A DNA stretch of 64,000 nucleotides, from NCBI GenBank assembly GCA_964106645.2, contig OZ067042.1. One strand, given 5' to 3'. Of the stretch, positions 428 through 63,998 are shown in pieces (the first letter of the stretch is position 1; each line of letters starts with the position of its first letter). Both the position numbers and the translations under genes were made by a program. The notes under the pieces were generated by a model, which was given only the letters and a program-made list of their open reading frames with translations, was not told the DNA's origin and ran no database searches. Origin of the DNA: Podarcis pityusensis. Its lineage: Eukaryota.

Positions 428-501
428 TGTTCGCCAGCTCTGAGCCTGTACCTGGATTCCACGGAGAAACCTTACAGTTAGCATTCATCGACCTCAGACA
501 A
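428..501 (+). CDS. EXOC6: Exocyst complex component 6 (Sec15A), internal coding exon (third from last constitutive exon)
   Basis: ttcttacag|TG acceptor and CAA|gtaag donor; 74 nt encoding (L)FASSEPVPGFHGETLQLAFIDLRQ, which matches the vertebrate EXOC6 C-terminal region and joins in frame (phase 0) to 28371. Confidence 0.95.
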
Positions 502-28370: not shown

Positions 28371-28483
28371 CTTTTGGATCTCTTCATGGTGTGGGATTGG
28401 TCGACTTACCTAGCAGACTACGGGCAGCCCAGCTCCAAGTACCTGCGCGTCAATCCAACCACCGCCTTGGCCCTCCTGGAGAA
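28371..28483 (+). CDS. EXOC6: EXOC6 penultimate constitutive coding exon
   Basis: Pyrimidine tract + cag| acceptor, AA|gtgagt donor; encodes LLDLFMVWDWSTYLADYGQPSSKYLRVNPTTALALLE(K), characteristic of Sec15/EXOC6. Confidence 0.97.
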
Positions 28484-28926
28484 GTGAGTCACACACAGCC
28501 CTCCTCCTCCTCCTCTAGAGATCTGCAGGCGCTATCAGGAGACCAATGCCTTGCAGGAGAGCGAATGCTAGGGCACTCCCCCCCCCCCTCCCAGGACACG
28601 CATAGGGAAAGGTTAGGTTGTAACCCAAATGCGAGCGCTTAGGTGCCGCCTGTCCCTTTGCAAACGGGGAAATGCTTCTTTTAGTTTTAACAGCTCCATC
28701 CCGATCTCTCGTGATTAGGACTGGACACTATCTGCATCTTCCCGCTTAGGAAATTTGCCCATCCTAAATTTCCTCGGACGGACGAGTCCCCTTTCATTGG
28801 CGCCCCCAGAAGAAGCCCACGCAAGATGGCAAAGTGTGGGATGGATCTCGGAGCAATTGGTAAACGTCCTGATTTTCAGGACCTTTTGGTTTAAAGTTAT
28901 TCCAAAAATATGTAGTTACTCTTTTT

Positions 28927-28966
<40 letters not shown>

Positions 28967-29609
28967 GAGAAACCTGCAGCAAAAACGCCCCAAAAAAGGT
29001 GACTAAACTGCAGTATTAAAAATTATTCTTTTCAGTATGGGGTCTTTGCTTGCGTTGCGCTATGCAAAATTCCCATCACCAACCTCCCTGTTCAAGGAGT
29101 CCACGTGCTTTGATTTAACCGGATAGTAGATCAGATTGCTACAAAAAAGTTGATCCATTTGATCCAGTGTGCCCCCCCGCAGTGCAGGCAGGCCTTGGAT
29201 GAGGATCTAACCTTGATCGAGAGAGAGAGAGGGAGAAAGATGGATGCCTCCACAGTCTAGCTGTTCGAAGGATCGCGGCAGCTGCCTTGAAAATGGGAAA
29301 GAGAGGAAGGAAGGTGCAGTCCTGGGCAGGCTTCACCTGGGACTACGTCCCTCTGAGCTGAATGGTACTTACCGGTACGTCTGAGCAAACCTCTTTAGGC
29401 TGAAGCAGCGAGGCTCTCTGGAAGCTTCAGCCTCGCCGCAAATGCGGAGTAGCAAAGAGCGTTTAGGAGTCAAGGCACACCGCTTGCAGCTACACCCTGA
29501 AATGTAAAGGCGTTATAAATATTTAGCTGTGCCTTAAACTACCCCCTTCCTTTCTAACTGTTGATTTGTTTTCTTTCTTTCCCCCTCTCAACGCCCCAAC
29601 GTTTTGCAG

Positions 29610-29621
29610 AGTCCACAGAGG
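29610..29621 (+). CDS. EXOC6: Candidate 12-nt alternative microexon of EXOC6 (inserts VHRG)
   Basis: CTAAC branch-like motif (29554-29558), long pyrimidine tract, ttttgcag|AGTCCACAGAGG|gtatgt; phase 2/2, stop-free: AA+A GTC CAC AGA GG+A gives K-V-H-R-G-M. Confidence 0.7.
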
Positions 29622-30344
29622 GTATGTATTTTTGTACTTTTTTGGTTTTACTTCTACTGTCACTCCGAATTTATTCCTTTTGGTATTAAACCACCCAAGT
29701 TTCCGCTTCGAAGAGATTAATAGGAAGGCTGCCTAAAACAAACAACCAAACAAAGAACAACTCAAGCCAAACTAAAGTGTCTTAATGGTTACAAGAAGTT
29801 GCCCATATACGAATTACAATGAACTGCATTCTGTTCCTTCTACAAGTAACTTAAATAACAACTGATTGTAACAGAATTCCCTTTGCTTCCATGGATACTT
29901 CCACACATCTATAATATTTAGGGTAGCCTCCATCCCCCATTAAAAAAAAAAAAAAGCCCTGTTTGCACTGGAAAATCCTGCTTTGTCATCCCAGCTCAGA
30001 ATTTTCAGATTTGGAAAATGAACTCAGGTCCCGGAAAGTTTATGCCATCCTAAAATATTTTAGCCTTTGAAGTTCACGGGTCTCTCTGTTGTTTTCGCCT
30101 AGACTGCTCTTTCCGCCGTTCCGATTGGAAGAAAATCGGATTAAGCTGGTGCCGTAAACTCGGCTGCTTGAGAACCTCAAAGGTTCCGAGCGCGTCGTTT
30201 TTTGCGCATTTGGGTGGGGTGCTGGGGCATTAAACCCTTTGCGTTGGGAACGAACGCAAATGAGGAGGAAATTTGGGCTTCTTTTGAAAACGAACGAACT
30301 AACTTAAATTCTGTTTCTTTCCTCTTCTCCCGTTCTGCTTTCAG

Positions 30345-30474
30345 AATGAAAGACGTGAAGAAGAACAACATCTTCGCCCAGTTCAGGAAGAACGACCGCG
30401 ACAAGCAGAAGCTCATCGAGACGGTGGTGAGGCAGCTGCGAGGCTTGGTGAACGGGATGTCCCAGCACTCCTGA
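30345..30474 (+). CDS. EXOC6: EXOC6 last coding exon
   Basis: ttctgctttcag|A acceptor; encodes (K)MKDVKKNNIFAQFRKNDRDKQKLIETVVRQLRGLVNGMSQHS-stop, matching the EXOC6 C-terminus. Confidence 0.97.
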
Positions 30475-35735: not shown

Positions 35736-36551
35736 GTGCAAGGCAGAGAATAGTTAAAAGGGGTGTGCGCGAAGGATGCTCCCAAAGGGTGAGAGAAGGA
35801 GCGTCCGAGCGCAGGCGGTTTTTGACAGCTCGGCAGAGAAGGGGAAAGGCGGAGGGGGATGAAGAAGAAGCCTCTTCAGAGTTCTCACCCTATGCGCGAG
35901 CAGCCTGGGCGGGCAAATCCTCTTTGGATTCCTAGGGGCTGACCGTCGAGGATGGGGCTCGTGGTGCTTGCAAGTGGGTCCGAGGGATCCCGATCCCAGC
36001 CACGCCGGTTCTGAGCAGAATGGCCCCCTCTCACTCCCTGGCCGCAAAAGGAAAGGACGGTGCGCTGTAGTTTCCCCGATCCTTTCAAAGTAGGTTGCGA
36101 TTCTTTCAGACGCGCAGTGGAAACGGGAAGAGACCCCCGCCGAGGTGAGAGCAAAGCGGCTGCGCTGTTGGGTTTCCTTTTATGTTTTGTGGGGGGCAGG
36201 GGGAGACACACTAGGAGAGGTGTCTTGGAGGTCTTCTTGACACCTCCCTCCCGGTTTGACTCTCAGGTTTTGCGCGGGCGCACCCGCTTTGGATCGCAAG
36301 CTTTGCGCAAGATTCCTTTGGGGACTTTAATGGACGGGTGGCGAGGAAAAGCATCTTTGAATAAAAAGTGGCATTTTGGGGATGGGTTGGCTTCTTTGCT
36401 TCCTGTATGGTGAGTTGAACCCACCTCTATGGGAATCCTAATCCGGAGTAGGATGCCCTGGCATCTGGTAGCAGATTTTCCCTCTCAAATATTCCCTTTC
36501 TCTATCCCTCTCCAGCTGAAGCCACAGTCGGCCAGTGAATTCCGCCGGGCG

Positions 36552-36788
36552 ATGCTGCCCAGCCCGAGCACGAAGATGCTGCCGCCGGTGGCAACCTCTG
36601 AGGATGCGCTCTCCTGGCTGGAGGCTGCGCTGGCCACCTGCCTGGCGGTGGCCTTCCTGCTGGCGCTGGCGCGGCACCTGTGGGCGCTGCGCTGGAGCCT
36701 GAGCCGAGACCGCGCCAGCGCCCTGCCGCTGCCCAAGGGCTCCATGGGTTGGCCCTTCTTCGGCGAGACGCTGCATTGGCTGGTCCAG
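36552..36788 (+). CDS. CYP26C1: Cytochrome P450 26C1, coding exon 1
   Basis: ATG at 36552 (alternative in-frame ATG at 36576); hydrophobic anchor followed by LPLPKGSMGWPFFGETLHWLVQ, typical of CYP26C1; CAG|gtgagc donor. Confidence 0.93.
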
Positions 36789-37023
36789 GTGAGCACTGGG
36801 GCGGCGGCGGGCGCGGCAGGTGAAGGACGAGCCTCCTGGGCTTAGCGCAGCCAGGACCGCGGACGGGGGCTTAGCCCAGAGGCACTCTGCACATGATCAG
36901 GGCACCGAAAAAGAGTTCTAGAGAGTGTGTCCCGCTCAAAGGAAGGTCCTACCGCTAGTCGCCCATTTCTCAGGATGGGAAAACGAAAGCCCTCGAGCTG
37001 GAGGGGACGCGGGCTGGGCAAAT

Positions 37024-37146
37024 CAGGGGTAGCTCAGTTGGTAGAGCATGAGACTCTTAATCTCCTGGTCGTGGGTTCCGACATTGCAGGGAATCTGACT
37101 ACATGGCCTTCGTGGTCCCTTCCAACTCTACAATTGCATGATTTTA
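37024..37146 (+). mobile_element. tRNA(Lys-CTT)-derived SINE with CR1-like tail in CYP26C1 intron 1
   Basis: TAGCTCAGTTGGTAGAGCATGAGACTCTTAATCTC..GGTCGTGGGTTC head; tail GGTCCCTTCCAACTCTACAATTGCATGATT. Confidence 0.8.
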
Positions 37147-37553
37147 CGACGCATTTGCCAAGCTGTCAGTTCAGTGGGATTTATTCCCAAGCAGGTGCGC
37201 CTAAGGCTGTATCACTTCCAGAGGTGTTCCTCAATGCAGGGAGGAAAGCACTTTTGTGAGGCTCAGAGACACTCTTCACATGTCCCAGGGTTGAAATTTA
37301 GGAATCATAGTAAACCGATTCCCCCTTTGAAAAGGCACTCTGAGTCCCCACGGAGGCGATCTCGGGCCGATGGTGCTCTTTCTGGGGAACCAGGATATGT
37401 TTGACACAAAGCAGCAGCTGCGAGGACTCAGCCCAGTGGGGAAAGCGCTCTTCACTATCTCAGAGACACCGTCGACTTTCTTCGCAAACTGTCTGCGAAG
37501 CTTGAGCCCAGGCCTGGGTCTCCATCCCTCTCTTTATCTGCCTGGCTGTGCAG

Positions 37554-37778
37554 GGTTCCAGCTTCCACAGCTCCCGGCGGCAAAGATACGGCGCCGTGTT
37601 CAAGACGCACCTGCTGGGCAAGCCGGTGATCCGCGTGAGCGGCGCCGACAACGTGCGCAAGATCCTGCTGGGAGAGCACAGCCTGGTGAGCGCCCAGTGG
37701 CCGCTCAGCACCCAGATCCTGCTGGGCTCGCACACCCTCCTCAACGCCAGCGCCGAGGCGCACCGCCAGCGCAGGAAG
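37554..37778 (+). CDS. CYP26C1: CYP26C1 coding exon 2
   Basis: tgcag|GGT ... AAG|gtagga; 225 nt; [42 protein letters not shown]...RRK. Confidence 0.97.
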
Positions 37779-38159
37779 GTAGGAGGCGGAGGGGCGCGTC
37801 GCTGGGGAGGGAACCGAGCCTGAAACCGAGCCGAGGCGCCCTCTGGGGAAGAGAAGGCAGCTCGCTGGCATTCATCTCCCCCTTACAGGTGTTGTTGGGC
37901 CCCCACTCCCATCAGCTTCAACCAGCACGGCCAATGGCGAGGAACCATGAGAGATGCGGTCCAGCAATATCTAGGGGTGGGGAGCCCTATAGCTAAAAGC
38001 TGGCTGTGGAAGTTTGTGCTAGGCGCTGTCGCAGATTCCAGTAGCCACGCAAAGGTTTAGGACCCGCGTCTTACGCAATTCTCTTGGTTGCTGCTAGGAC
38101 TATACCACTTAGGGCTACTGCTGGTGGCCGGGGTTGTAACCCCCCCCCCCATTCTTACA

Positions 38160-38162
<3 letters not shown>

Positions 38163-38206
<44 letters not shown>
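38163..38206. repeat. (TC)n microsatellite
   Basis: Read directly from the sequence. Confidence 0.95.
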
Positions 38207-38211
<5 letters not shown>

Positions 38212-38494
38212 ACTGAACACAGGCAATGTCTCCCTGCTTAGGAAAGTTTCCCCACCCCATAGCTCAGCATTCAAACACGCGCAAAGTGGTATAGTCCGGG
38301 GAAGAATCTCGGCGGTTCTGGTGTTTGTACCGACTGGCCCATTCAAGAGACCAGAATGGGGAAAAGAACTGGGGGACTGGTGAAGGGGAAAAATGGCTTT
38401 GGGGCACGATGTCCCTAGTAGCGACCGCCCCGCTCCCCCAATTAATTTTACATCGCCCGCCGCGATTCTCTCCCTTCTCTTTTCGCCGCGTCAG

Positions 38495-38770
38495 ATCCTG
38501 GTCAGAGTTTTCGGCCGCGCCGCCCTGGAGAGCTACCTGCCCCGCATCCAGAAGGTGGTGTGCTGGGAGCTGCGCGGCTGGTGCCAGCAGCCGGGCCCCG
38601 TCGCCGTCTATTCTTCCGCCAAGACCTTGACCTTCCGCATCGCCGCGCGGATCCTGCTGGGACTCAGCCTGGAGGAGAAGCAGTTCAAGGAGCTGGCTCG
38701 GACCTTTGAGCAGCTGGTGGAGAATCTCTTCTCCTTGCCGCTCAACATCCCCTTCAGCGGGCTGAGGAAG
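38495..38770 (+). CDS. CYP26C1: CYP26C1 coding exon 3
   Basis: tcag|ATC ... AAG|gtaggg; 276 nt; ILVRVFGRAALESYLPRIQ...FEQLVENLFSLPLNIPFSGLRK. Confidence 0.97.
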
Positions 38771-39424
38771 GTAGGGCTGCGTGCGCATGTGTGTGTGTGT
38801 CCCCATCCTCATCGCCATCCAAAGAACCAACTCCGACCATGATCACTTACCCCCATCCGTTCTGAAGTCCCGCTAATGCCACTGATGAGCGCAGAATCCT
38901 AGAACCCCTGGTCTAAAGTGTGTTTATGACTGTATCCCTACCCTTTACATCGGATAGACCTTATTTATTACTATAATTCACATCTTTCTAGGCCGCCTTT
39001 CAAGACTATGGGTATCCCAAGGCGGCTTTCCTCAATACCAAGTATTAAAGTGAGTGAAAGACCCCTTTCTGGCCTATTTGGTGGTCAGAGGTGGGGTGAG
39101 GTTCTGGCTTTGAGCTCTCGGGAGCCCCATCCTCTATTCAGACCAAGCAGCTGGAATAATTTTCTGCTGGAAAGGTATTCTGCACCTGCTCAGAGATGCA
39201 CCTCTTGCGTATTTGTTTGTGTAGGCTATTTTAACCCCCCCTTTCCCCCCCAAGCAGGACGCAATTAAGTTTTATAGCACAAATGAGACAGCAACCAACC
39301 TTTAAAGGCACAAAATCCCAATTAAAACAAAATAACTACCTGCCTATTCTAAAGCCTTTGAAAAGGAAGGGTTTTTTTAAAAAATGGATTTAATATTCAC
39401 CCGCGTTGCAATGTTCAGTTGCAC

Positions 39425-39486
39425 ATTCAGACCTTTCAAACTGAATTTCGCACCGTTCATTCTATATTAGTTTGAAAGGTCTGAAT
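39425..39486. repeat. 18-bp perfect inverted repeat (hairpin)
   Basis: ATTCAGACCTTTCAAACT (39425-39442) and AGTTTGAAAGGTCTGAAT (39469-39486). Confidence 0.9.
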
Positions 39487-40953
39487 TGCCCAAGGTGTCC
39501 AGCTTAAAAGGGACAAACTCCGGCATCTGTCGCATCGTGCTGGAACACTGATCGCAACGCTTAGGGGGCCACCACAAAAAAGGCTCTTTCTGCCTGACAA
39601 GCGGCAGAACCGCAGATTGGTTCTCATTCCCAGATCGGAAAGGTCAGGGGGGAGCGCTGCCTGGACCTGAGCAGAGCCTTGCATTTAGCCCCCAAACGAT
39701 TCGGAACCCAGCGGAGCCCATAAAGAACAGGTGCCAGTTCTAACCTGAGCGACAGGCTACTGGGCAGGCTGAGATCTTTACTGGTCCAGATTCAAAGCCT
39801 GGTCGAAACCACCCGGTTCCTTGCAACCGAGCAGTTTCTGTGGCTTCTGCTCATGACCTTTATTGGCTGTGAAGGGATTTTGGCGGCGCACGTGAACGCG
39901 GGTCGCGCAGTGCCGACCACCTCTCCTCTAAAACGAGGTTCCTTTGAATTCAATGCGTCTTGGTCTCTTTGAATTCACAGGGTCTTACTCCCAGGTAAAC
40001 AGAGATTTATGGCTGCAGCCTAAGGACCCCGTTGAATTCAACAGGACTTACTTCTGAGTAGACCTGCACCAAGTTTCACTGCTCATTGGGGCTTATTTAT
40101 TATTTCCCAGGTCCATAGGATCGCCTAAGGCTCTCTCATCACCCCCCACACCCGAGCGAGTTTCGTAGAAATCCATTGGGTTCTCCCGACAAGTAAAGCA
40201 ATAATCCAAAACAGCATTCTTTGAGTTGGAAGCAAATCCCATTTGAACTCTTTCCTTCGGAGTTAAGACGATCGCATTCGCATTGCACAAAAGGCAGGAA
40301 CAAGTTGCGTCCTGCGGTGTAAAGGCGTCGTCAATGCAGAGTGCCTTTGTACGGTCACGGTGGCTGCCTGGTGGCGGAGGAAAAGGCATTGAGATCTCCT
40401 CGAATATCTTCCCCTTTCTCCTTTTTTTGCTTCCCGAAAGTCGTTCATGCCTGATCCATTTAAACACTGTCTCATCCGTGCTCCCATTGCACCGGCTGCG
40501 ACGCCTTACGATTTAAAGCTTTAAACGATTCCCTTCCTGGTATAATTTGGGATTGTTCACATAAACACACGCAAGTCTAGCGCAAGTTTGGGCCAGGTGT
40601 GGTGCCATTCATCTGGGTTTTTCTTTAGCAACCAGTGGACTTTCAGGATCTCGGATTCCTCCACCCCCACGGCTGGAGTTCCCGGCTTCCTCTTATTGTT
40701 CACCTTTTCAAAATTTGGCAGCTCAGCGGCTGAAGGCTTTGTAGTCCTCGGAATTTCCTTTCTCACTGCACTGATTATGGGTTTCCTTGGGCGGGATTGA
40801 CAGGAACTTTCCCCGTTTCAGCGAAGGAAGAGGATATATTAAGCGCCGCTTCTAATTATAATGAGCTCCTACCTGGAGAAGTACGGTAAAAGATTGCCTG
40901 AACGTTCCAAGCAATAAGCGACTTCTGACTTCTTCGGCCTCCAAAGGGGCTAG

Positions 40954-40955
<2 letters not shown>

Positions 40956-41001
<46 letters not shown>
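40956..41001. repeat. (TG)n microsatellite ~55 nt upstream of the CYP26C1 exon 4 acceptor
   Basis: Read directly from the sequence. Confidence 0.95.
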
Positions 41002-41002
<1 letters not shown>

Positions 41003-41055
41003 TGCGTCTGTGCCTTTCTCCTTAGCCATTGCTGTTTTTTCTCTGAACCCTTCAG

Positions 41056-41211
41056 GGAATAAAGGCCAGGAATCTGCTACACGAGTACATGGAGAAAGCC
41101 ATCTCGGAGAAACTGAAGCAGAAGGATCCTGAGGCTCACAGCGACGCTCTGGATTTCATTATCAACAGTGCCAAGGAGCATGGCAAAGAATTTACCATGC
41201 AGGAGCTGAAG
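41056..41211 (+). CDS. CYP26C1: CYP26C1 coding exon 4
   Basis: ttcag|GGA ... AAG|gtaact; 156 nt; GIKARNLLHEYMEKAISEKLKQKDPEAHSDALDFIINSAKEHGKEFTMQELK (absent from the ORF track, translated by hand). Confidence 0.95.
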
Positions 41212-41992
41212 GTAACTTCCTTTAAGCCGCCTGGAGTGGCCACAGTTGTCCCCTAGCTCACACAACCAAACATGGTCCTTTCCAAAATGACCATGTAAAG
41301 AAGTAATAAAGGTGTAAGTGCCTCTGACCATGTGCAAAGGTCATTTCTGTAGGTGCATCCCACACAGCCTACAAGCAAGACATTATCACAGGACTTCCAA
41401 GCACCTGGTAAGACTCTCTTTCCAAGTTAGTTCCAACCATATTATAGAAATAATAACCACATATGATGAAATAATTATTCCCACTCTGTCTGGCATAATC
41501 TTTGCTCTGCATCTTTTCTGTGGTGTTCAGTTAACTCACATTGACTTTGAACCAGGCATGGATCAGGATCATGCCCATTTGTTAATTATGGTTGTATTAT
41601 GCTTTGCCTTTGGGAAATTTGAAGTGGTTTCTTGGCAGTACACACAAAGCATCCTAGGAATTGTGTTTTTTCACCTTTCACAAAGGTGAAACCCTTGACA
41701 AATTACAGCCTCCAGGATTCTTTGTGAGGGAGAAATGGGTTGCTTAGCTCTAGCACTGTGACAGCATCCTGTTACCTCAAGCTGATGAGTGTCAGTACTG
41801 CACCCAGAAGTCATTGTGGTGACTGCAGTCCTCTCCCACTTGCCACAGGGACAGATGGGTTTCACTGGGTGGGATTGACAGAAGGAGAACTTTCCTAATT
41901 TCAGCTAAGGAAGAGGATATATTGAGTGCTGAATCTGGTGTCTGGAGATCTGATATGGCCTCCTGCACTTATCCTGAATAGAATCCAGGGCT

Positions 41993-42184
41993 TAGGGTTG
42001 CCATATTTCAAAAAGTAAAAACCAGGACACCCCAAGCTTTTTTGACGGCATTTTTGACACAATTTAACCCCCATTGCCAGTTTTCCAGGACATTTGACAG
42101 ATTTCCAAAAAATAATCCAGGACGCAATTTTCGGAGGCAAAATCTGGGACATGTCCTGGAAAATCAGGAGGGATGGCAGCCCTA
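41993..42184. mobile_element. Non-autonomous DNA transposon (hAT-like TIRs)
   Basis: TAGGGTTGCCAT ... ATGGCAGCCCTA terminal inverted repeats with internal CCAGGACA/TGTCCTGG subterminal motifs. Confidence 0.65.
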
Positions 42185-42797
42185 CAAGGCTGGGTGTGGA
42201 GATTTTTGCAGCAAATGGTTTGAAGTGGAGTTTATTTGATTGCTCTACACCAGATCTTGTTCTCCACGTATCATATTGAACTGAATTATTATAAATAGCA
42301 GCCTTCAGCAGAAGCTATTTTTTCTTGAAAATAGGGCCAATTCAGTACAGTCCCAAACACACTTTAGGGGAAGAGGTAAAAAAATCAGTTTCAAAGAAGT
42401 GAGACTTCTTTCTGGGCCTCTGATCACCCATCAGGAACCACATCAATAGGAGTAGTCTTTAAAGGACAGAATACAGTTGGGGATTGTGCTGTTTTTATTT
42501 TAATTTTAAGTCATTCTTGTTTTGACAATTGAAATCGATTGGAATGGTCAGAGTAAGTGTTTCCAGGATCCAAACGATAAACAGAACCACATGAGCTGGT
42601 TGATGGGATTCCATATGACATAAGCAGCTGTCTAAACTAGAAAGGCCTCTTTCCAGACAATGAAGTATGTGCCATGCCATGCTGACTCCGCTGTAATAGG
42701 TGGTGACTTCACTGAAGTCAATGATTACCCATCTGCATGGCTATTTTGGCAAATTGGCTTTGCTAGGATTGTGTGTGAATTGGTCTATTCTGTAAAC

Positions 42798-43065
42798 CAG
42801 AGATGGGGAACCTGCAGCTTCCAGATGTTGTTGGACTCCCATCTTCCCCAGCCAGTGTGTCCAGAGATGCTAGGACAGGCATCCCCAACCTGTGGCCCTC
42901 TATATGTTTTGGCCTACAACTCCCATGATCCCTAGCTAACAGGACCAGTGGTCAGGGATGATGGGAACTGTAGTCCAAAACATCTGGAGGGCCAAAGGTT
43001 GGGAATTCCTGTGATAGGAAGTGTCACCCAGCAACATCTGGAGGGCCACAAGTTCCCCACTTCTG
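42798..43065. mobile_element. Nested palindromic hAT-type MITEs
   Basis: Inner element 42876-43011 (CAGGCATCCCCAACC...GGTTGGGAATTCCTG) flanked by TGCTAGGA/TGATAGGA, inside a related outer element. Confidence 0.75.
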
Positions 43066-43166
43066 TGAGTGCAAAAAGAGATTGATTGGAGCACACATAA
43101 TTTTCATATTTTCTTTTCAGCATAAAGAGAAACTTTTCAACACTTTTCAACATTTGTTGCTTAAAC

Positions 43167-43302
43167 CAGGCTCCCTCAAACTCGGCCCTCCATATGTTTT
43201 TGGCCTACAACTCCCATGATCCCTAGCTAGCAGGACCAGTGGTCAGGGATGATGGGAATTGTAGTCTCAAAACATCTGGAGGGCTGAGTTTGAGGAAGGC
43301 TG
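43167..43302. mobile_element. Palindromic hAT-type MITE
   Basis: CAGGCTCCCTCAAACTC...GAGTTTGAGGAAGGCTG with a perfect 8-bp target-site duplication GCTTAAAC. Confidence 0.85.
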
Positions 43303-44227
43303 GCTTAAACAATGATATAAGAAAGACTGACATGGGGATCTGCTGCCCCTATAGATCCTGTCGCCTGAGGTGGTCAGCTCACCTGGCCTCATGGGTTGTC
43401 TGGCCCTGAACTCAAATTCCCACCAGCCTCAGCCAGGAGGCCAGTGGCCAGGGATTACAGTCATGGATGATGGGAGGTGTAGTCCAACAGTATCCAGAGG
43501 GTCACAGGTTAGACTCTGGATTTAATGGATGGAGAGGGGCTCTTGATTCCGGATTTAATAATCTTATGGAGGTAATGTGCATCCTTAGATGGTACCATCC
43601 TTAGATAGTAACATGCATCAATTCACTTTATTGCTGCTGCTCCCTCCTTCTGCTGAGTGGAGCCCCAAGCCTCTGCCCCAAGGTCCCAGGCCCAGCTGTA
43701 CTACTGCTTGGATGTGTAACAAGTGTGGATTGCACAAGCCTGTAAGGAATGATTCACTGTTGCAATTGGTAGCCCAAGGCAGTTGGGATGAGGAGCCATT
43801 TTTTAATAAGTAATTTAGCCCCTTACTGTAGCTCTGATCATGGGTGTAACTAAGGGGGACAGCTAGATCCTCAAATATTATTATTATTTATTATTTTATT
43901 ATTTCTTTTTTAAAAAATCAACAACTTTGGCTGTCCCACCTCAACAAAAATCCTGGCTATACCCATGGCTTTCACCAAAACTATCACCTCAACAATTTCT
44001 TATGGATGCTCATGTTTTCCAGGCCAGGTTGGAATCAAAAAATGATGTGAGTTTTCTGGTTCCCCACAGCTTGAAAACTCTAACAATGTTATATTTGAAT
44101 TCTAATCACAATGTGTGTACCTGCCTGACTTTGACGCACAAGTGGACTCTGTCTTAAATGGCTTGTGGGTGTCATGCAAAAAAAAAAAAAGGGTATTTAA
44201 TCTCTCTCCCAATGGCTTATCTTGCAG

Positions 44228-44791
44228 GAGTCTGCGATTGAATTGATCTTTGCTGCTTTCTTCACCACTGCCAGTGCTACTACTTCCATGATCCTCCTGT
44301 TGCTGAAACACCCCTTGGTCATAAAAAAGATTCAGCAGGAGCTGGTGTCCCATGATCTCACCGGGCAGTGCCATTGCCTCGCTGCAGGAGATTCTCTGAG
44401 AAACCATCAGTCTTGCCCAGAGACTCTGGTCATCCATGGAAAAGACAACAAAGACAGGGATTCCAATCCACCTCTTCCTCCCAGGCTGGAAGGAGAACTA
44501 GACAGAGAGACAAAGAGGGAAGTCAGAGTCCCTAAGTTGGGTCCCATTGCTACAGCAGCCCAAGGAACTGTCCATGAGACTACAAACTGCCCTTGCTCTG
44601 CAGCCAAACAAGAAGAAGCAAACCAAGTCCTTGGCAAGCTGGAAAGACATGAGCACTATTGTCAGTCTTACTTGACACTGGAGAAGATGAGCCATCTGCG
44701 GTACCTGGATTGCGTCATCAAGGAAGTGCTGCGTTTGCTGCCCCCAGTGTCCGGAGGCTATAGGACAGCCTTACAAACCTTTGAACTGGAT
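44228..44791 (+). CDS. CYP26C1: CYP26C1 coding exon 5 (I-helix, long insertion, K-helix ExxR)
   Basis: ttgcag|GAG ... GAT|gtgagt; 564 nt; [17 protein letters not shown] (I-helix) and [29 protein letters not shown]. Confidence 0.96.
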
Positions 44792-45292
44792 GTGAGTTGT
44801 GGGGCTTGCTGTGTGGGTTGCTTTTGTGGAAGTGCATGGAATTTGGGCTGGGTTGAGTTGGGTTTCACAAGTTTAGTCTGACCACTTCACAGGGGCCATG
44901 GCAGCTACCTTGGGAGCCATGGGAAACACCCTCCTTTCCCAGTGATGCTATGTGTTTATCCTACTTGGGGACAGAAGATGTTGCAAGAAACAACAGGGGC
45001 ACTTGGGGTTCACAAGTTAGAAACCTAATGGCCCCTGGGGTTTGCTGTGGGAAAGTATGATTGATAGAGTGCAGAAACTAGAATTGGGGGGGGGGCAGGG
45101 AAGCATGGGAGAGATACAATGAACAGGAGACCCCGGTAGTGGATAGGTAACTGGGATGGCTTGTGAGAATGAAAGCAGTTGTGAAGAAGGTCCTATTAAG
45201 TTTCAGTGAATAAACCATAGAACCGATTAATGAGACAGGTGCCTCAAGAGATAGACAGCTGGGGATTGGTAGGGTGCAATTGTTCAGGTTTC

Positions 45293-45673
45293 GGGTGGCG
45301 CTGTGGTCTAAAACACTGAGCCTCTTGGGCTTGCCAATCAGAAGGTCGGCGGTTCAAATCCCCATGATGGGGTTCAGCTCCCATTGCTTGGTCCTAGCTC
45401 CTGCCAACCTAGCAGTTCAAAAGCATGCCAAAAGTGCAAGCAGATAAATAGGTACCACTCTGGCAGGAAGGTAAGCGGTGTTTCCGTGCGCTGCTCTGGT
45501 TTTGGTGTTCCGTTGTGCCAGAAGCGGCTTAGTCATGCCGGCCACATGACCCAGAAAAACTGTCTGCGGATAAATGCCGGCTCCCTCGGCCTGTACAGTG
45601 AGATGAGCGCCGCAACCCCAGAGTCGTCTGTGACTGGACTTAACTGTCAGGGGTCCTTTACCTTTACCTTTTA
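45293..45673 (+). mobile_element. Sauria SINE, near full length, in CYP26C1 intron 5
   Basis: GGGTGGCGCTGTGG A box, GGTTCAAATCC B box, GCCAACCTAGCAGTTC body, and (ACCTTT)n tail. Confidence 0.9.
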
Positions 45674-47013
45674 CCAAAATGAATATGGCCACCCTGGATG
45701 TTCATTAGACCAATTAGCAGGATTGCTGCCATTACAAGTATTGCAATTGGAGCATCTATTGTGGAGACTAGTAGTTGGCAATGGAAGCTGTGCTTGGAGA
45801 ATGTTTAAAGATTCATAAGCTGAAGGATTGCTGCAAGTGTGTTCCCCACAAAGTACTTGATTTAACATTAGGGTTAAAAGGGACCTAACTCTCCATAACT
45901 GCAACAAACTCCTCATAGTTATAATTTTCTAGGTGATTTCACCTCAAGCTGTGGCTCACAGAACTACCAAACTGCTCTTTTAATCAGCTCAGATACCATT
46001 TCAAGTAAACTTGATTGAAGGCATGAAAGGGGAAATTGCTCCGTTTACAAAAAACCCCCAAAACATTCATGCCAAAGCAATGACCTCTTGTGCAGGACAT
46101 AGAGTACTAGTCTCATTTATATATTTAAATAAACTCCCAGAAAAGTGTGGGCTCTGGATCAAGCCTCATCTTGTTGTTGTTATAGCATCAAATAGAAGGT
46201 GCCGTCCAGTATGTATTTATTTAGCAAAATGTACATATGACTTGATTGTCACAAAACCTCAAAGCAATAAATAGCACAACATGCTTGTTAAGTTGCTTTT
46301 GGCTGCCTGCATATGTGCTGGTCGGAGAGAAAGTGTGATAATGTGCATCTGAAAGTTGTACACCCCTTGAAAATTAACATAGGCTGTTGACCCATCTAGT
46401 TGGGCCTCAAGCAAAGGTCTTCCCCAGCCCTGCTGCCTGAAATCACTTTTTAGTTATGCCTCACCGATAATGGGAGCTGTCACACTGCATAAGAATTAAA
46501 TTATGTGCCAAATATTGTAAGCATTGCTGCAGAGTAGTCTTTAGGTGCTGTGTCAGCTAGATTTATTCTTGTCTGGCTCTTACACTGTTAGGATTAGCAT
46601 GCTCTCAAGGTGTTGCAAGACCCACACCCTTCATCAAAGATAGAGGTTGATGTGGTGGGGGGAAATTAACAGGTTTTCTGTCAAATATTTGTTGCATACC
46701 CATTTCTATTCGACTGTTAAACGGGATTTTGAATACTTCAGTGTACATTCCCTGAAGTTGTAATTCACACATCACTGAAACCATGGTATTTCTGCACCGC
46801 CCATTATAGGTCTCTTAACATCTTAATAGGCTTGAGCTTCTGCTCAAGGGTAATGGTACGGGGGAGTTGAATTTGTGAGGTTTCCTCAAAGATGGGGGTC
46901 TGTCCTTGTGGATGCTCTAGTATAGAAGTCGCTTCCTTTCTCCTTCCCTTTGCAGGCTGCCCTCTGCAGGCTGCTGTCTCTGGTGCTGATTTTGTTCTGT
47001 CTCCCTCCTGCAG

Positions 47014-47412
47014 GGCTGCCAGATTCCCAAGGGCTGGAGCGTGATGTACAGTATTCGGGACACGCACGAGACCGCCAGCATCTATCAGAGTCCACCAGAC
47101 ATGTTTGACCCCGAGCGGTTTTGGGTGCCACAGGAGGAACGGGAAGAGCACAAAGGAGCTGGCCCCGTCCGCTTTCACTATATCCCCTTTGGTGGGGGAG
47201 TCCGAAATTGCATAGGCAAAGAACTGGCCCAGATGGTCCTCAAGTTGCTTGCTATTGAACTGGTCAGCACAGCCCGCTGGGAGCTGGCCACAGCACACTT
47301 CCCTAAGATGCAAACGGTGCCTATTGTGCACCCGGTGGATGGCTTGCAGCTCTATTTCCATCCTCTGAAGCAGGGAAGAGAAAGCAGCGGAACCAGCAAG
47401 ACAGAGACTTGA
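47014..47412 (+). CDS. CYP26C1: CYP26C1 coding exon 6 (PERF and heme-binding Cys)
   Basis: ctcctgcag|GGC; [20 protein letters not shown]...FDPERF...[15 protein letters not shown] (FxxGxRxCxG); TGA ends at 47412. Confidence 0.97.
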
Positions 47413-63806: not shown

Positions 63807-63998
63807 ATGGGTTTCTCTGCCTTGCTGCCCAGCGCTGTGCTCACCTTCGTGCTGCTGCCGCTGCTCCTCTTCCTGGCCGCAGTGAAGCTGTGGGACTTGT
63901 ACTGCCTGCGCGGCCGCGATCCCAGCTGCCCGCTGCCCCTGCCCCCGGGCACCATGGGGCTGCCCTTTTTCGGGGAGACGCTGCAGTTAGTGTTGCAG
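63807..63998 (+). CDS. CYP26A1: Cytochrome P450 26A1, coding exon 1 (gene continues beyond the window)
   Basis: Kozak-like gccagcATGG; MGFSALLPSAVLTFVLLPLLLFLAAVKLWDLYCLRGRDPSCPLPLPPGTMGLPFFGETLQLVLQ|gt, matching the CYP26A1 N-terminus; synteny with CYP26C1. Confidence 0.97.
   Translation, partial: MGFSALLPSAVLTFVLLPLLLFLAAVKLWDLYCLRGRDPSCPLPLPPGTMGLPFFGETLQLVLQ

What the first reader, a model, noticed from the sequence alone, without database searches (positions are those of the whole stretch)
29545..29630. Hidden 12-nt frame-preserving microexon in the last EXOC6 intron
Seen: TTCTAAC branch-like site, a ~50-nt AG-free pyrimidine-rich stretch, TGC next to the acceptor, then cag|AGTCCACAGAGG|gtatgt. 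The phase matches both flanking exons and changes LLEK-MKD to LLEK-VHRG-MKD. Established: 3-27 nt microexons with this upstream architecture are typically neural, SRRM3/4-dependent and enriched in vesicle-trafficking genes. Inference: a tissue-specific switch in the Sec15 C-terminal domain. It is invisible to the ORF track; it may already be annotated as an isoform in some vertebrates, which I cannot check.
Basis: partly seen in the sequence, partly recalled or inferred. Interest (0 to 1): 0.75.

Follow-up and report, generated by a model that had tools for sequence, protein, structure and literature searches.

The report
Known four-residue EXOC6 microexon in lizard
A real 12-base mini-exon adds four amino acids near the end of the vesicle-tethering protein EXOC6 in this lizard; it is conserved from gar to mammals and already annotated, so it is ordinary, though its tissue control likely differs between fish, lizards and humans.

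Summary
Confirmed, but already known. The 12-nt exon (29610-29621) has canonical splice sites and matching phase. Spliced contigs join it to both neighbouring exons in 4 of 4 laid runs. RefSeq already holds the isoform: the window's last 108 residues with the insert are identical to Podarcis models. V[H/Y/N]RG occurs in lizards, snakes, birds, turtles, mammals, gar and teleosts. It is very likely VastDB's 12-nt EXOC6 event (HsaEX0023471, DreEX0031112).

Zebrafish inclusion is neural (PSI 93) but leaky, and weakly srrm3-dependent. The human exon is retina-specific (PSI 30-39, cortex 1.4). It is switched on by MSI1 (PSI 61 from 0; dPSI 82 by a second method) and hardly by SRRM3/4. The only UGC is the ordinary TGCAG acceptor. 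The lizard lacks a downstream UAG cluster, and 36 of 40 informative lizard models carry the insert, hinting at broad inclusion. The insert sits right after the Sec15_C domain and is predicted to lengthen a helix. Its function is untested. This scan had not noted it before.

The parts
428..501 (+). EXOC6 coding exon, third from last of the constitutive ones; the first EXOC6 exon inside the window
   Evidence: tblastn with P0132, splice sites read, exact protein match
28371..28483 (+). EXOC6 exon upstream of the microexon (113 nt, ends in phase 2)
   Evidence: spliced contigs
28484..29609 (+). Upstream intron (1126 nt, GT..AG)
   Evidence: joint
29552..29558 (+). Branch-point-like heptamer; A at 29557, 52 nt from the acceptor G (predicted, not mapped)
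29559..29607 (+). Long pyrimidine tract (78%) within an 83-nt AG-free zone; predicted less paired (0.37) than the two neighbouring acceptor regions (0.60, 0.58)
29605..29609 (+). TGCAG acceptor; holds the only UGC between branch site and AG
29610..29621 (+). 12-nt microexon, phase 2/2, adds VHRG
   Evidence: joined form in 4 of 4 runs; RefSeq models
29616..29621 (+). Internal CAG that could serve as an in-frame acceptor for a 3-nt exon (29619-29621); no sign of use
   Evidence: no such joint and no one-residue insert at this site among the models tabulated
29622..29661 (+). Donor GTATGT followed by a U-rich stretch (62% T at +7 to +40); no UAG before +100
29622..30344 (+). Downstream intron (723 nt); UAG at +100, +298, +303, +440, +479
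30345..30474 (+). Coding part of the last EXOC6 exon, to the stop codon

Best explanation
This is a spliced 12-nt cassette microexon of EXOC6 (Sec15A), conserved across bony vertebrates and already annotated, which adds four residues right after the Sec15_C domain and likely tunes, rather than switches, the exocyst's vesicle-facing tail. SHOWN: sequence, splice sites, phase, joined transcripts in lacertid-like runs, and both forms among protein models. INFERRED, splicing: a distant branch site, a long open pyrimidine tract and a U-rich stretch after the donor let the spliceosome recognise so short an exon. In the lizard, inclusion is most likely highest in nervous tissue and eye but substantial elsewhere, more like zebrafish than human, with at most a partial SRRM3/4 boost and little MSI1 input. 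PREDICTED, protein: the valine takes the place of the conserved hydrophobic residue after LLEK. The second-last helix grows (12 residues in the skip model, 21 in the inclusion model), and the linker to the terminal helix changes. This would shift the terminal helix and modestly change binding or dynamics in ciliary and secretory vesicle traffic. My odds: real and the known VastDB event about 0.93; this tissue pattern in lizards about 0.45; a measurable protein effect about 0.5.
For: Joined form in 4 of 4 runs, three organisms, four studies. 108 of 108 residues identical to four Podarcis RefSeq models and 107 of 108 to Zootoca and Lacerta models. 62 of 236 proteins carry the insert, 138 lack it and 36 did not match the pattern. 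All 104 new proteins from the VHRG-biased search carry V[H/Y/N]RG, including snakes, gar and teleosts. It is the only recurring 4-residue optional segment in the conserved body of 213 models, which links it to the 12-nt VastDB events. Zebrafish PSI: neural 92.7, endocrine pancreas 47.7, muscle 28.1, immune 20.1, liver, testis and ovary 0. The lizard has 1 UAG in the first 200 downstream bases against about 2.6 expected from the local background. 36 of 38 distant Sec15 representatives have no insert, with a hydrophobic residue after the LLEK-equivalent; 2 have unrelated inserts. AlphaFold2 models. EXOC6A works with myosin-Va in ciliogenesis (PMC13189621, abstract start and passages).
Against: No tissue label or read-level inclusion value exists for any lizard sample here; the runs are only guessed to be RNA, and no DNA run was laid as control. 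The match to the VastDB events rests on gene, length and uniqueness, not on human or zebrafish DNA. No primate or rodent model with the insert was among those tabulated (6 of 92 informative placental models carry it). srrm3-mutant zebrafish eyes show dPSI +10.5, -1.2 and -8.9 at 48, 60 and 72 h and -32.3 only at 5 days, when photoreceptors are already degenerating, so the SRRM3 boost may be indirect. The two structure models used different alignments and isoforms, and confidence around the insert is moderate (block pLDDT 83 and 71 with the insert; 81 and 63 without). No functional study of this exon was found.
Confidence: 0.62

Rival explanations
1. In lizards the exon has become near-default: it is included in most tissues because its core splice signals are strong, and skipping is the minor form.
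For: 36 of 40 informative non-snake lizard models carry it, against 6 of 92 placental, 5 of 31 teleost and 0 of 5 snake models. No skipping joint in 4 runs; in X9 one unbroken contig spans the whole upstream exon, the microexon and the start of the last exon. X10 shows an upstream-intron-first intermediate, whereas 58% of SRRM4-dependent microexons are downstream-first (PMC10250204, passages).
Against: Gene models are not independent: they come from about 14 species, and cluster representatives favour long isoforms. The runs were ranked by how much of the stretch, introns included, they hold, which may favour brain or eye. Contigs drop rare variants. Skip models exist for Zootoca, Rhineura and two geckos. 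The splicing order rests on one contig.
Confidence: 0.25
2. One reading: a strict neural switch driven by SRRM3/4 through the UGC next to the acceptor.
For: Long branch-to-AG distance (52 nt; chicken neural microexon median 47 against 34 nt, PMC12871342 passages). UGC between branch site and AG. Zebrafish neural dPSI 86 and eMIC-mutant dPSI -32. Inclusion in endocrine pancreas fits SRRM3 targets (10.1101/2024.09.17.613571, abstract start).
Against: The human orthologue does not respond: dPSI 0-1.35 in 7 of 8 tests and 10.6 in one; eMIC overexpression 6.85, classed NO_REG. The only UGC is the common TGCAG acceptor. The fish srrm3 effect is absent before 5 days, and fish muscle PSI is 28.
Confidence: 0.2
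3. As in humans, a photoreceptor exon switched on by Musashi binding UAG motifs after the donor, with PTBP1 repressing at the pyrimidine tract.
For: Human retina PSI 39.1 and 29.6 against cortex 1.4. MSI1 overexpression in HepG2 gives PSI 61.3, and 76.4 with PTBP1 knockdown, from 0. A dPSI of 82 in HepG2 (likely the same data requantified) and 10.8 in HEK293 is listed.
Against: No UAG in the first 99 downstream bases and only 1 in 200 in the lizard. EXOC6 is not in the mouse, chicken or zebrafish retina-microexon sheets (one hit in that file, the human sheet). No Exoc6 splicing row was found in the Musashi mouse supplements searched (some files cut or unread). The many lizard models with the insert fit badly with a retina-only exon.
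Confidence: 0.08
4. A chance pseudo-exon or annotation artefact, not used in mRNA.
For: About 1% of simulated introns give such a candidate (22 of 2000). The laid runs are not on record as RNA.
Against: Joined contigs in 4 of 4 runs. The peptide is conserved from gar to mammals, and the matching VastDB event has tissue-specific PSI values in two species.
Confidence: 0.02

Closest known systems
RefSeq EXOC6 isoforms with VHRG: Podarcis muralis XP_028585614.1 (P0132), P. raffonei XP_053244713.1 (P0121), Zootoca XP_034994020.1, chicken XP_025007365.1
   Same: Same exon; the window's 108 C-terminal residues are identical to the Podarcis models.
   Different: Nothing found; these are computational models without tissue information.
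Human EXOC6 microexon HsaEX0023471 (hg38 chr10:93057906-93057917), a retina microexon in PMC9303857 and an MSI1-induced exon in PMC6952364
   Same: Same gene and 12-nt length; very likely the orthologue (the only recurring 4-residue optional segment in the conserved body).
   Different: Human inclusion is retina-limited and MSI1-inducible; the lizard lacks a proximal UAG cluster and seems to include it more widely. PMC6952364 lists a 15-nt form starting 3 nt earlier; the lizard has no AG at that position.
Zebrafish exoc6 microexon DreEX0031112 (12 nt), a neural microexon in the PMC12626424 supplements
   Same: Listed there as the orthologue of the human event; otophysan fish models carry VNRG at the same site.
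   Different: Second residue differs (N or Y in most fish, H in amniotes). The tissue pattern is measured in fish and unknown in the lizard.
SRRM3/4-dependent neural microexon programme
   Same: 3-27 nt, frame-preserving, distant branch point, long pyrimidine tract, vesicle-traffic gene, vertebrate conservation.
   Different: No UGC apart from the acceptor; the human orthologue does not respond to SRRM3/4; dependence in fish is late and partial.

Membership tests
Conserved vertebrate cassette microexon | 3-27 nt exon with GT-AG sites | tested here: met
   12 nt, AG and GTATGT
Conserved vertebrate cassette microexon | Spliced into transcripts | tested here: met
   Joined form in 4 of 4 runs; runs are only guessed to be RNA
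Conserved vertebrate cassette microexon | Both included and skipped forms exist | tested here: met
   Both forms among models of Zootoca, Rhineura, Pituophis and gar; no skipping joint in the four runs
Conserved vertebrate cassette microexon | Conserved across distant vertebrates | tested here: met
   Gar, teleosts, squamates, turtles, birds, marsupials, placentals; absent from 9 of 9 amphibian models seen
VastDB event HsaEX0023471 / DreEX0031112 | Same gene and same length | tested here: met
   EXOC6, 12 nt; only recurring 4-residue optional segment in the conserved body of 213 models
VastDB event HsaEX0023471 / DreEX0031112 | Same exon by genomic sequence and position | not testable with these tools
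   No human or zebrafish genome held; the metagenome scan found no vertebrate locus
SRRM3/4-dependent neural microexon | Distant branch point and long pyrimidine tract | tested here: met
   52 nt, 78% pyrimidine, 83-nt AG-free zone; branch point predicted only
SRRM3/4-dependent neural microexon | UGC enhancer between branch point and AG | tested here: inconclusive
   Only the TGCAG acceptor, shared by 3 of 8 ordinary acceptors here; UGC is not strictly required (10.1101/2024.09.17.613571, section 10)
SRRM3/4-dependent neural microexon | Neural-high, non-neural-low inclusion | not testable with these tools
   No tissue labels for lizard runs; published: met in zebrafish, not met in human
SRRM3/4-dependent neural microexon | Response to SRRM3/4 gain or loss | not testable with these tools
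   Not testable for the lizard; published: human not met, zebrafish -32 at 5 days only
MSI1-activated photoreceptor exon | UAG cluster within 200 nt after the donor | tested here: not met
   1 UAG at +100, about 2.6 expected from background
MSI1-activated photoreceptor exon | Retina-limited inclusion and MSI1 response | not testable with these tools
   Published for human only

The most novel reading that the evidence does not exclude
One four-residue exon has been kept since the bony-vertebrate ancestor while its control was rewired: pan-neural and leaky in fish, photoreceptor-only and Musashi-driven in humans, near-default in lizards, minor in snakes, and possibly lost in amphibians. EXOC6 would then be a compact natural test of how a conserved microexon changes regulator and tissue range through its flanking introns alone.
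Probability: 0.3. Interest if true: 0.4.

Novelty: already known. Interest (0 to 1): 0.2.

Why it matters
As an exon it is not news: it is in RefSeq for lacertids and very likely in VastDB, and it appears in the supplementary tables of three papers. No paper found discusses it in its text. What remains open is modest but testable. First, what four residues at the vesicle-facing end of Sec15A do in photoreceptors and neurons, given EXOC6A's role with myosin-Va in ciliary traffic. Second, whether the same exon really moved between regulators and tissue ranges across vertebrates; the fish-human difference is already visible in published tables, and the lizard part is a hint from this work.

Tried and rejected
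Own-genome search: no genome is held for this window, so the EXOC6B paralogue was not examined. Run search: no RNA holder listed; 18 of 24 runs were guessed RNA, and tissue labels were not given. Metagenome scan for vertebrate EXOC6 loci, to compare intron motifs: 599 pattern matches, none confirmed. Supplement searches with no EXOC6 row: PMC12626420 (file 13 not searched) and PMC7821500. Only expression or proteomics rows: PMC4991804 (file 11 not searched) and PMC9509328 (file 8 cut, file 5 unread). Files 13-18 of PMC9303857 were not searched, and bioRxiv supplements are closed; these could hold chicken or mouse values. An apparent loss in snakes (0 of 5) was rejected: Crotalus, Pantherophis, Ahaetulla, Pituophis and Liasis models carry VHRG. 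The 64% tblastn hit at 412-543 looked like a duplicated exon but is the ordinary exon 428-501. A 3-nt form through the internal CAG has no support. Solved structures: only Drosophila 2A2F (ends before the insert) and the yeast exocyst. No complex prediction was run, as no specific partner is claimed. Earlier scan findings: none on this exon.

Full report
Observation. The window holds the 3' end of EXOC6 (exons 428-501, 28371-28483 and 30345-30474) followed by CYP26C1. The animal is a lacertid lizard: the last 108 residues encoded here, with the insert, are identical to four Podarcis RefSeq models and differ by one residue from Zootoca and Lacerta models. There is a branch-like heptamer at 29552, a 49-nt tract that is 78% pyrimidine inside an 83-nt AG-free zone, the exon 29610-29621 and the donor GTATGT. 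Both introns are phase 2 and inclusion adds VHRG. A filter built after seeing the site finds only this candidate in 64 kb on both strands, and 22 of 2000 simulated introns give any candidate.

It is spliced. I laid 4 of the 24 runs listed (X1, X5, X9, X10; organisms A, A, B, C; four studies). In X1, X5 and X9 a contig joins 28483 to the last exon with the microexon letters between. In X10 the same form appears as a loose end, and another contig joins the upstream exon to 29610 and continues through the downstream intron, an upstream-first intermediate. No skipping joint was listed. These are assembled contigs of runs only guessed to be RNA, with no tissue label and no DNA control, so they show presence and not level.

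It is conserved and annotated. Of 236 proteins carry the insert (53 VHRG, 5 VYRG, 2 VHKG, 1 IHRG, 1 with four extra residues before VHRG), 138 lack it and 36 did not match the pattern. By group (included/skipped/site absent): non-snake lizards 36/4/7, snakes 0/5/0, birds 8/5/8, turtles 2/1/0, amphibians 0/8/0, marsupials 4/4/1, placentals 6/86/7, teleosts 5/26/4, unnamed 1/2/1; five CYP26C1 proteins were set aside. A search with a VHRG-bearing query, biased by design, added 104 proteins that all carry V[H/Y/N]RG, including five snake genera, gar and many teleosts. A further 45 cluster members gave 14 included, 21 skipped and 10 without the site; Nanorana X1 and a mouse model skip it. Of 150 unnamed distant Sec15 representatives I aligned the 38 whose matches reached the C-terminus: 36 have no insert and 2 have unrelated inserts. 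The skipped form is therefore ancestral, and the exon dates at least to the bony-vertebrate ancestor. Sharks, lampreys and EXOC6B were not examined.

It is very likely a catalogued event. Supplement rows of PMC12626424 list zebrafish exoc6 DreEX0031112, 12 nt, with PSI neural 92.7, endocrine pancreas 47.7, muscle 28.1, immune 20.1 and 0 in liver, testis and ovary. They give dPSI -32.3 on eMIC loss and name the human orthologue HsaEX0023471, classed NO_REG (neural dPSI 13.8, eMIC overexpression 6.85) (passages). Supplement rows of PMC9303857 list HsaEX0023471, 12 nt, as a human retina microexon: retina 39.1, other neural 3.65, others 1.67. Its dPSI is 10.8 (HEK293) and 82.2 (HepG2) with MSI1, 0-1.35 in seven SRRM3/4 tests and 10.6 in SH-SY5Y. 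srrm3-mutant fish eyes give +10.5, -1.2, -8.9 and -32.3 at 48 h, 60 h, 72 h and 5 days. The paper's text says broad changes at 5 days are likely secondary to photoreceptor damage (passages). Supplement file 5 of PMC6952364 gives, for a 15-nt form with the same end: HepG2 control 0, MSI1 61.3, MSI1 plus PTBP1 knockdown 76.4, retina 29.6, cortex 1.4, skeletal muscle 7.4. The HepG2 values in the two papers likely come from the same experiment. I could not compare DNA. The link rests on gene, length, the published orthology, and the fact that VHRG is the only recurring 4-residue optional segment outside the variable N-terminus and acidic linker in 213 models.

Regulation in the lizard. The long branch-to-AG distance fits neural microexons (chicken median 47 against 34 nt; PMC12871342, passages). 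But the only UGC is the acceptor TGCAG, shared by 3 of 8 ordinary acceptors inspected; UGC is also not strictly needed (10.1101/2024.09.17.613571, section 10). The Musashi signature, UAG clusters within 200 nt after the donor (PMC6952364, passages), is missing: one UAG at +100. A U-rich stretch follows the donor; that such stretches help U1 recruitment through TIA1 is recalled, not tested. Most lizard models include the exon and no skipping joint was seen, but both signals are biased. I therefore commit to neural- and eye-high but leaky inclusion, at about 0.45. Near-default inclusion (0.25), a strict SRRM3/4 switch (0.2) and a Musashi photoreceptor exon (0.08) are the rivals.

Effect on the protein. 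Pfam Sec15_C ends at residue 779 of P0132 and the insert is 780-783. The Drosophila crystal 2A2F matches 418-748, so no solved animal structure covers the site. In distant Sec15 proteins a hydrophobic residue follows the LLEK-equivalent, and the insert's valine keeps that pattern. AlphaFold2 ends the helix two residues after the junction in the skip form (helix 746-757 of P0133, then a low-confidence linker) and runs it through the insert in the inclusion form (770-790 of P0132). The two models differ in alignment and isoform, so this is a lead. The Sec15 C-terminal region protrudes from the exocyst and binds myosin V in Aspergillus through an acidic patch about 170 residues from the end (PMC13546919, passages). 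Sec15 faces the vesicle (PMC11555703, passages), and human EXOC6A works with myosin-Va in ciliogenesis (PMC13189621; no mention of isoforms found). A tuning role in ciliary and secretory traffic is inference.

Literature status. Full-text searches for EXOC6 or exocyst with microexon, splicing or photoreceptor terms found no paper that discusses this exon. The three mentions in PMC6952364's text concern Exoc6b. The library lacks most subscription papers, and some supplements were unread (see Tried and rejected). Verdict: real, correctly spotted, already known; interest 0.2. The residual value lies in the apparent change of regulator and tissue range across vertebrates.

Noticed in passing
EXOC6 protein P0132 residues 660-669; gene region upstream of the window: A second optional segment of 10 residues, absent from 116 of 213 models and from Drosophila Sec15; likely a second, 30-nt small exon. 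It sits in a low-confidence loop of the model.
   Followed up: partly
EXOC6 protein P0132 residue 481: One-residue (Q) indel in 11 of 213 models, including isoform pairs of 824 and 825 aa; looks like a tandem NAGNAG acceptor.
   Followed up: no
window 29610-30373, run X10: Contig with upstream exon, microexon and the retained downstream intron: an upstream-intron-first intermediate or intron retention.
   Followed up: partly
P0086 (Balaenoptera ricei X1) and human chr10:93057903: Mammals seem to use extra upstream acceptors: a whale model has four more residues before VHRG, and PMC6952364 lists a 15-nt human form.
   Followed up: no
amphibian models P0064, P0111, P0116, P0118-P0120, P0235, P0236, P0533: 0 of 9 amphibian models carry the insert; possible loss or just low sampling.
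   Followed up: partly
window 36516-47409 (+) and 63879-63998 (+): CYP26C1 follows EXOC6, and a CYP26-like exon begins at the window's end (likely CYP26A1; name recalled from vertebrate synteny).
   Followed up: partly
window 44222-44845: The Podarcis CYP26C1 X1 model (P0124, 631 aa) matches this stretch as one block, whereas the goat protein matches it as two exons (44222-44395, 44660-44791); suggests an in-frame retained intron or much enlarged exon in lacertids.
   Followed up: no
window 502-28370: A 27.9-kb intron precedes the exon upstream of the microexon; the microexon filter found no further candidate in it.
   Followed up: partly
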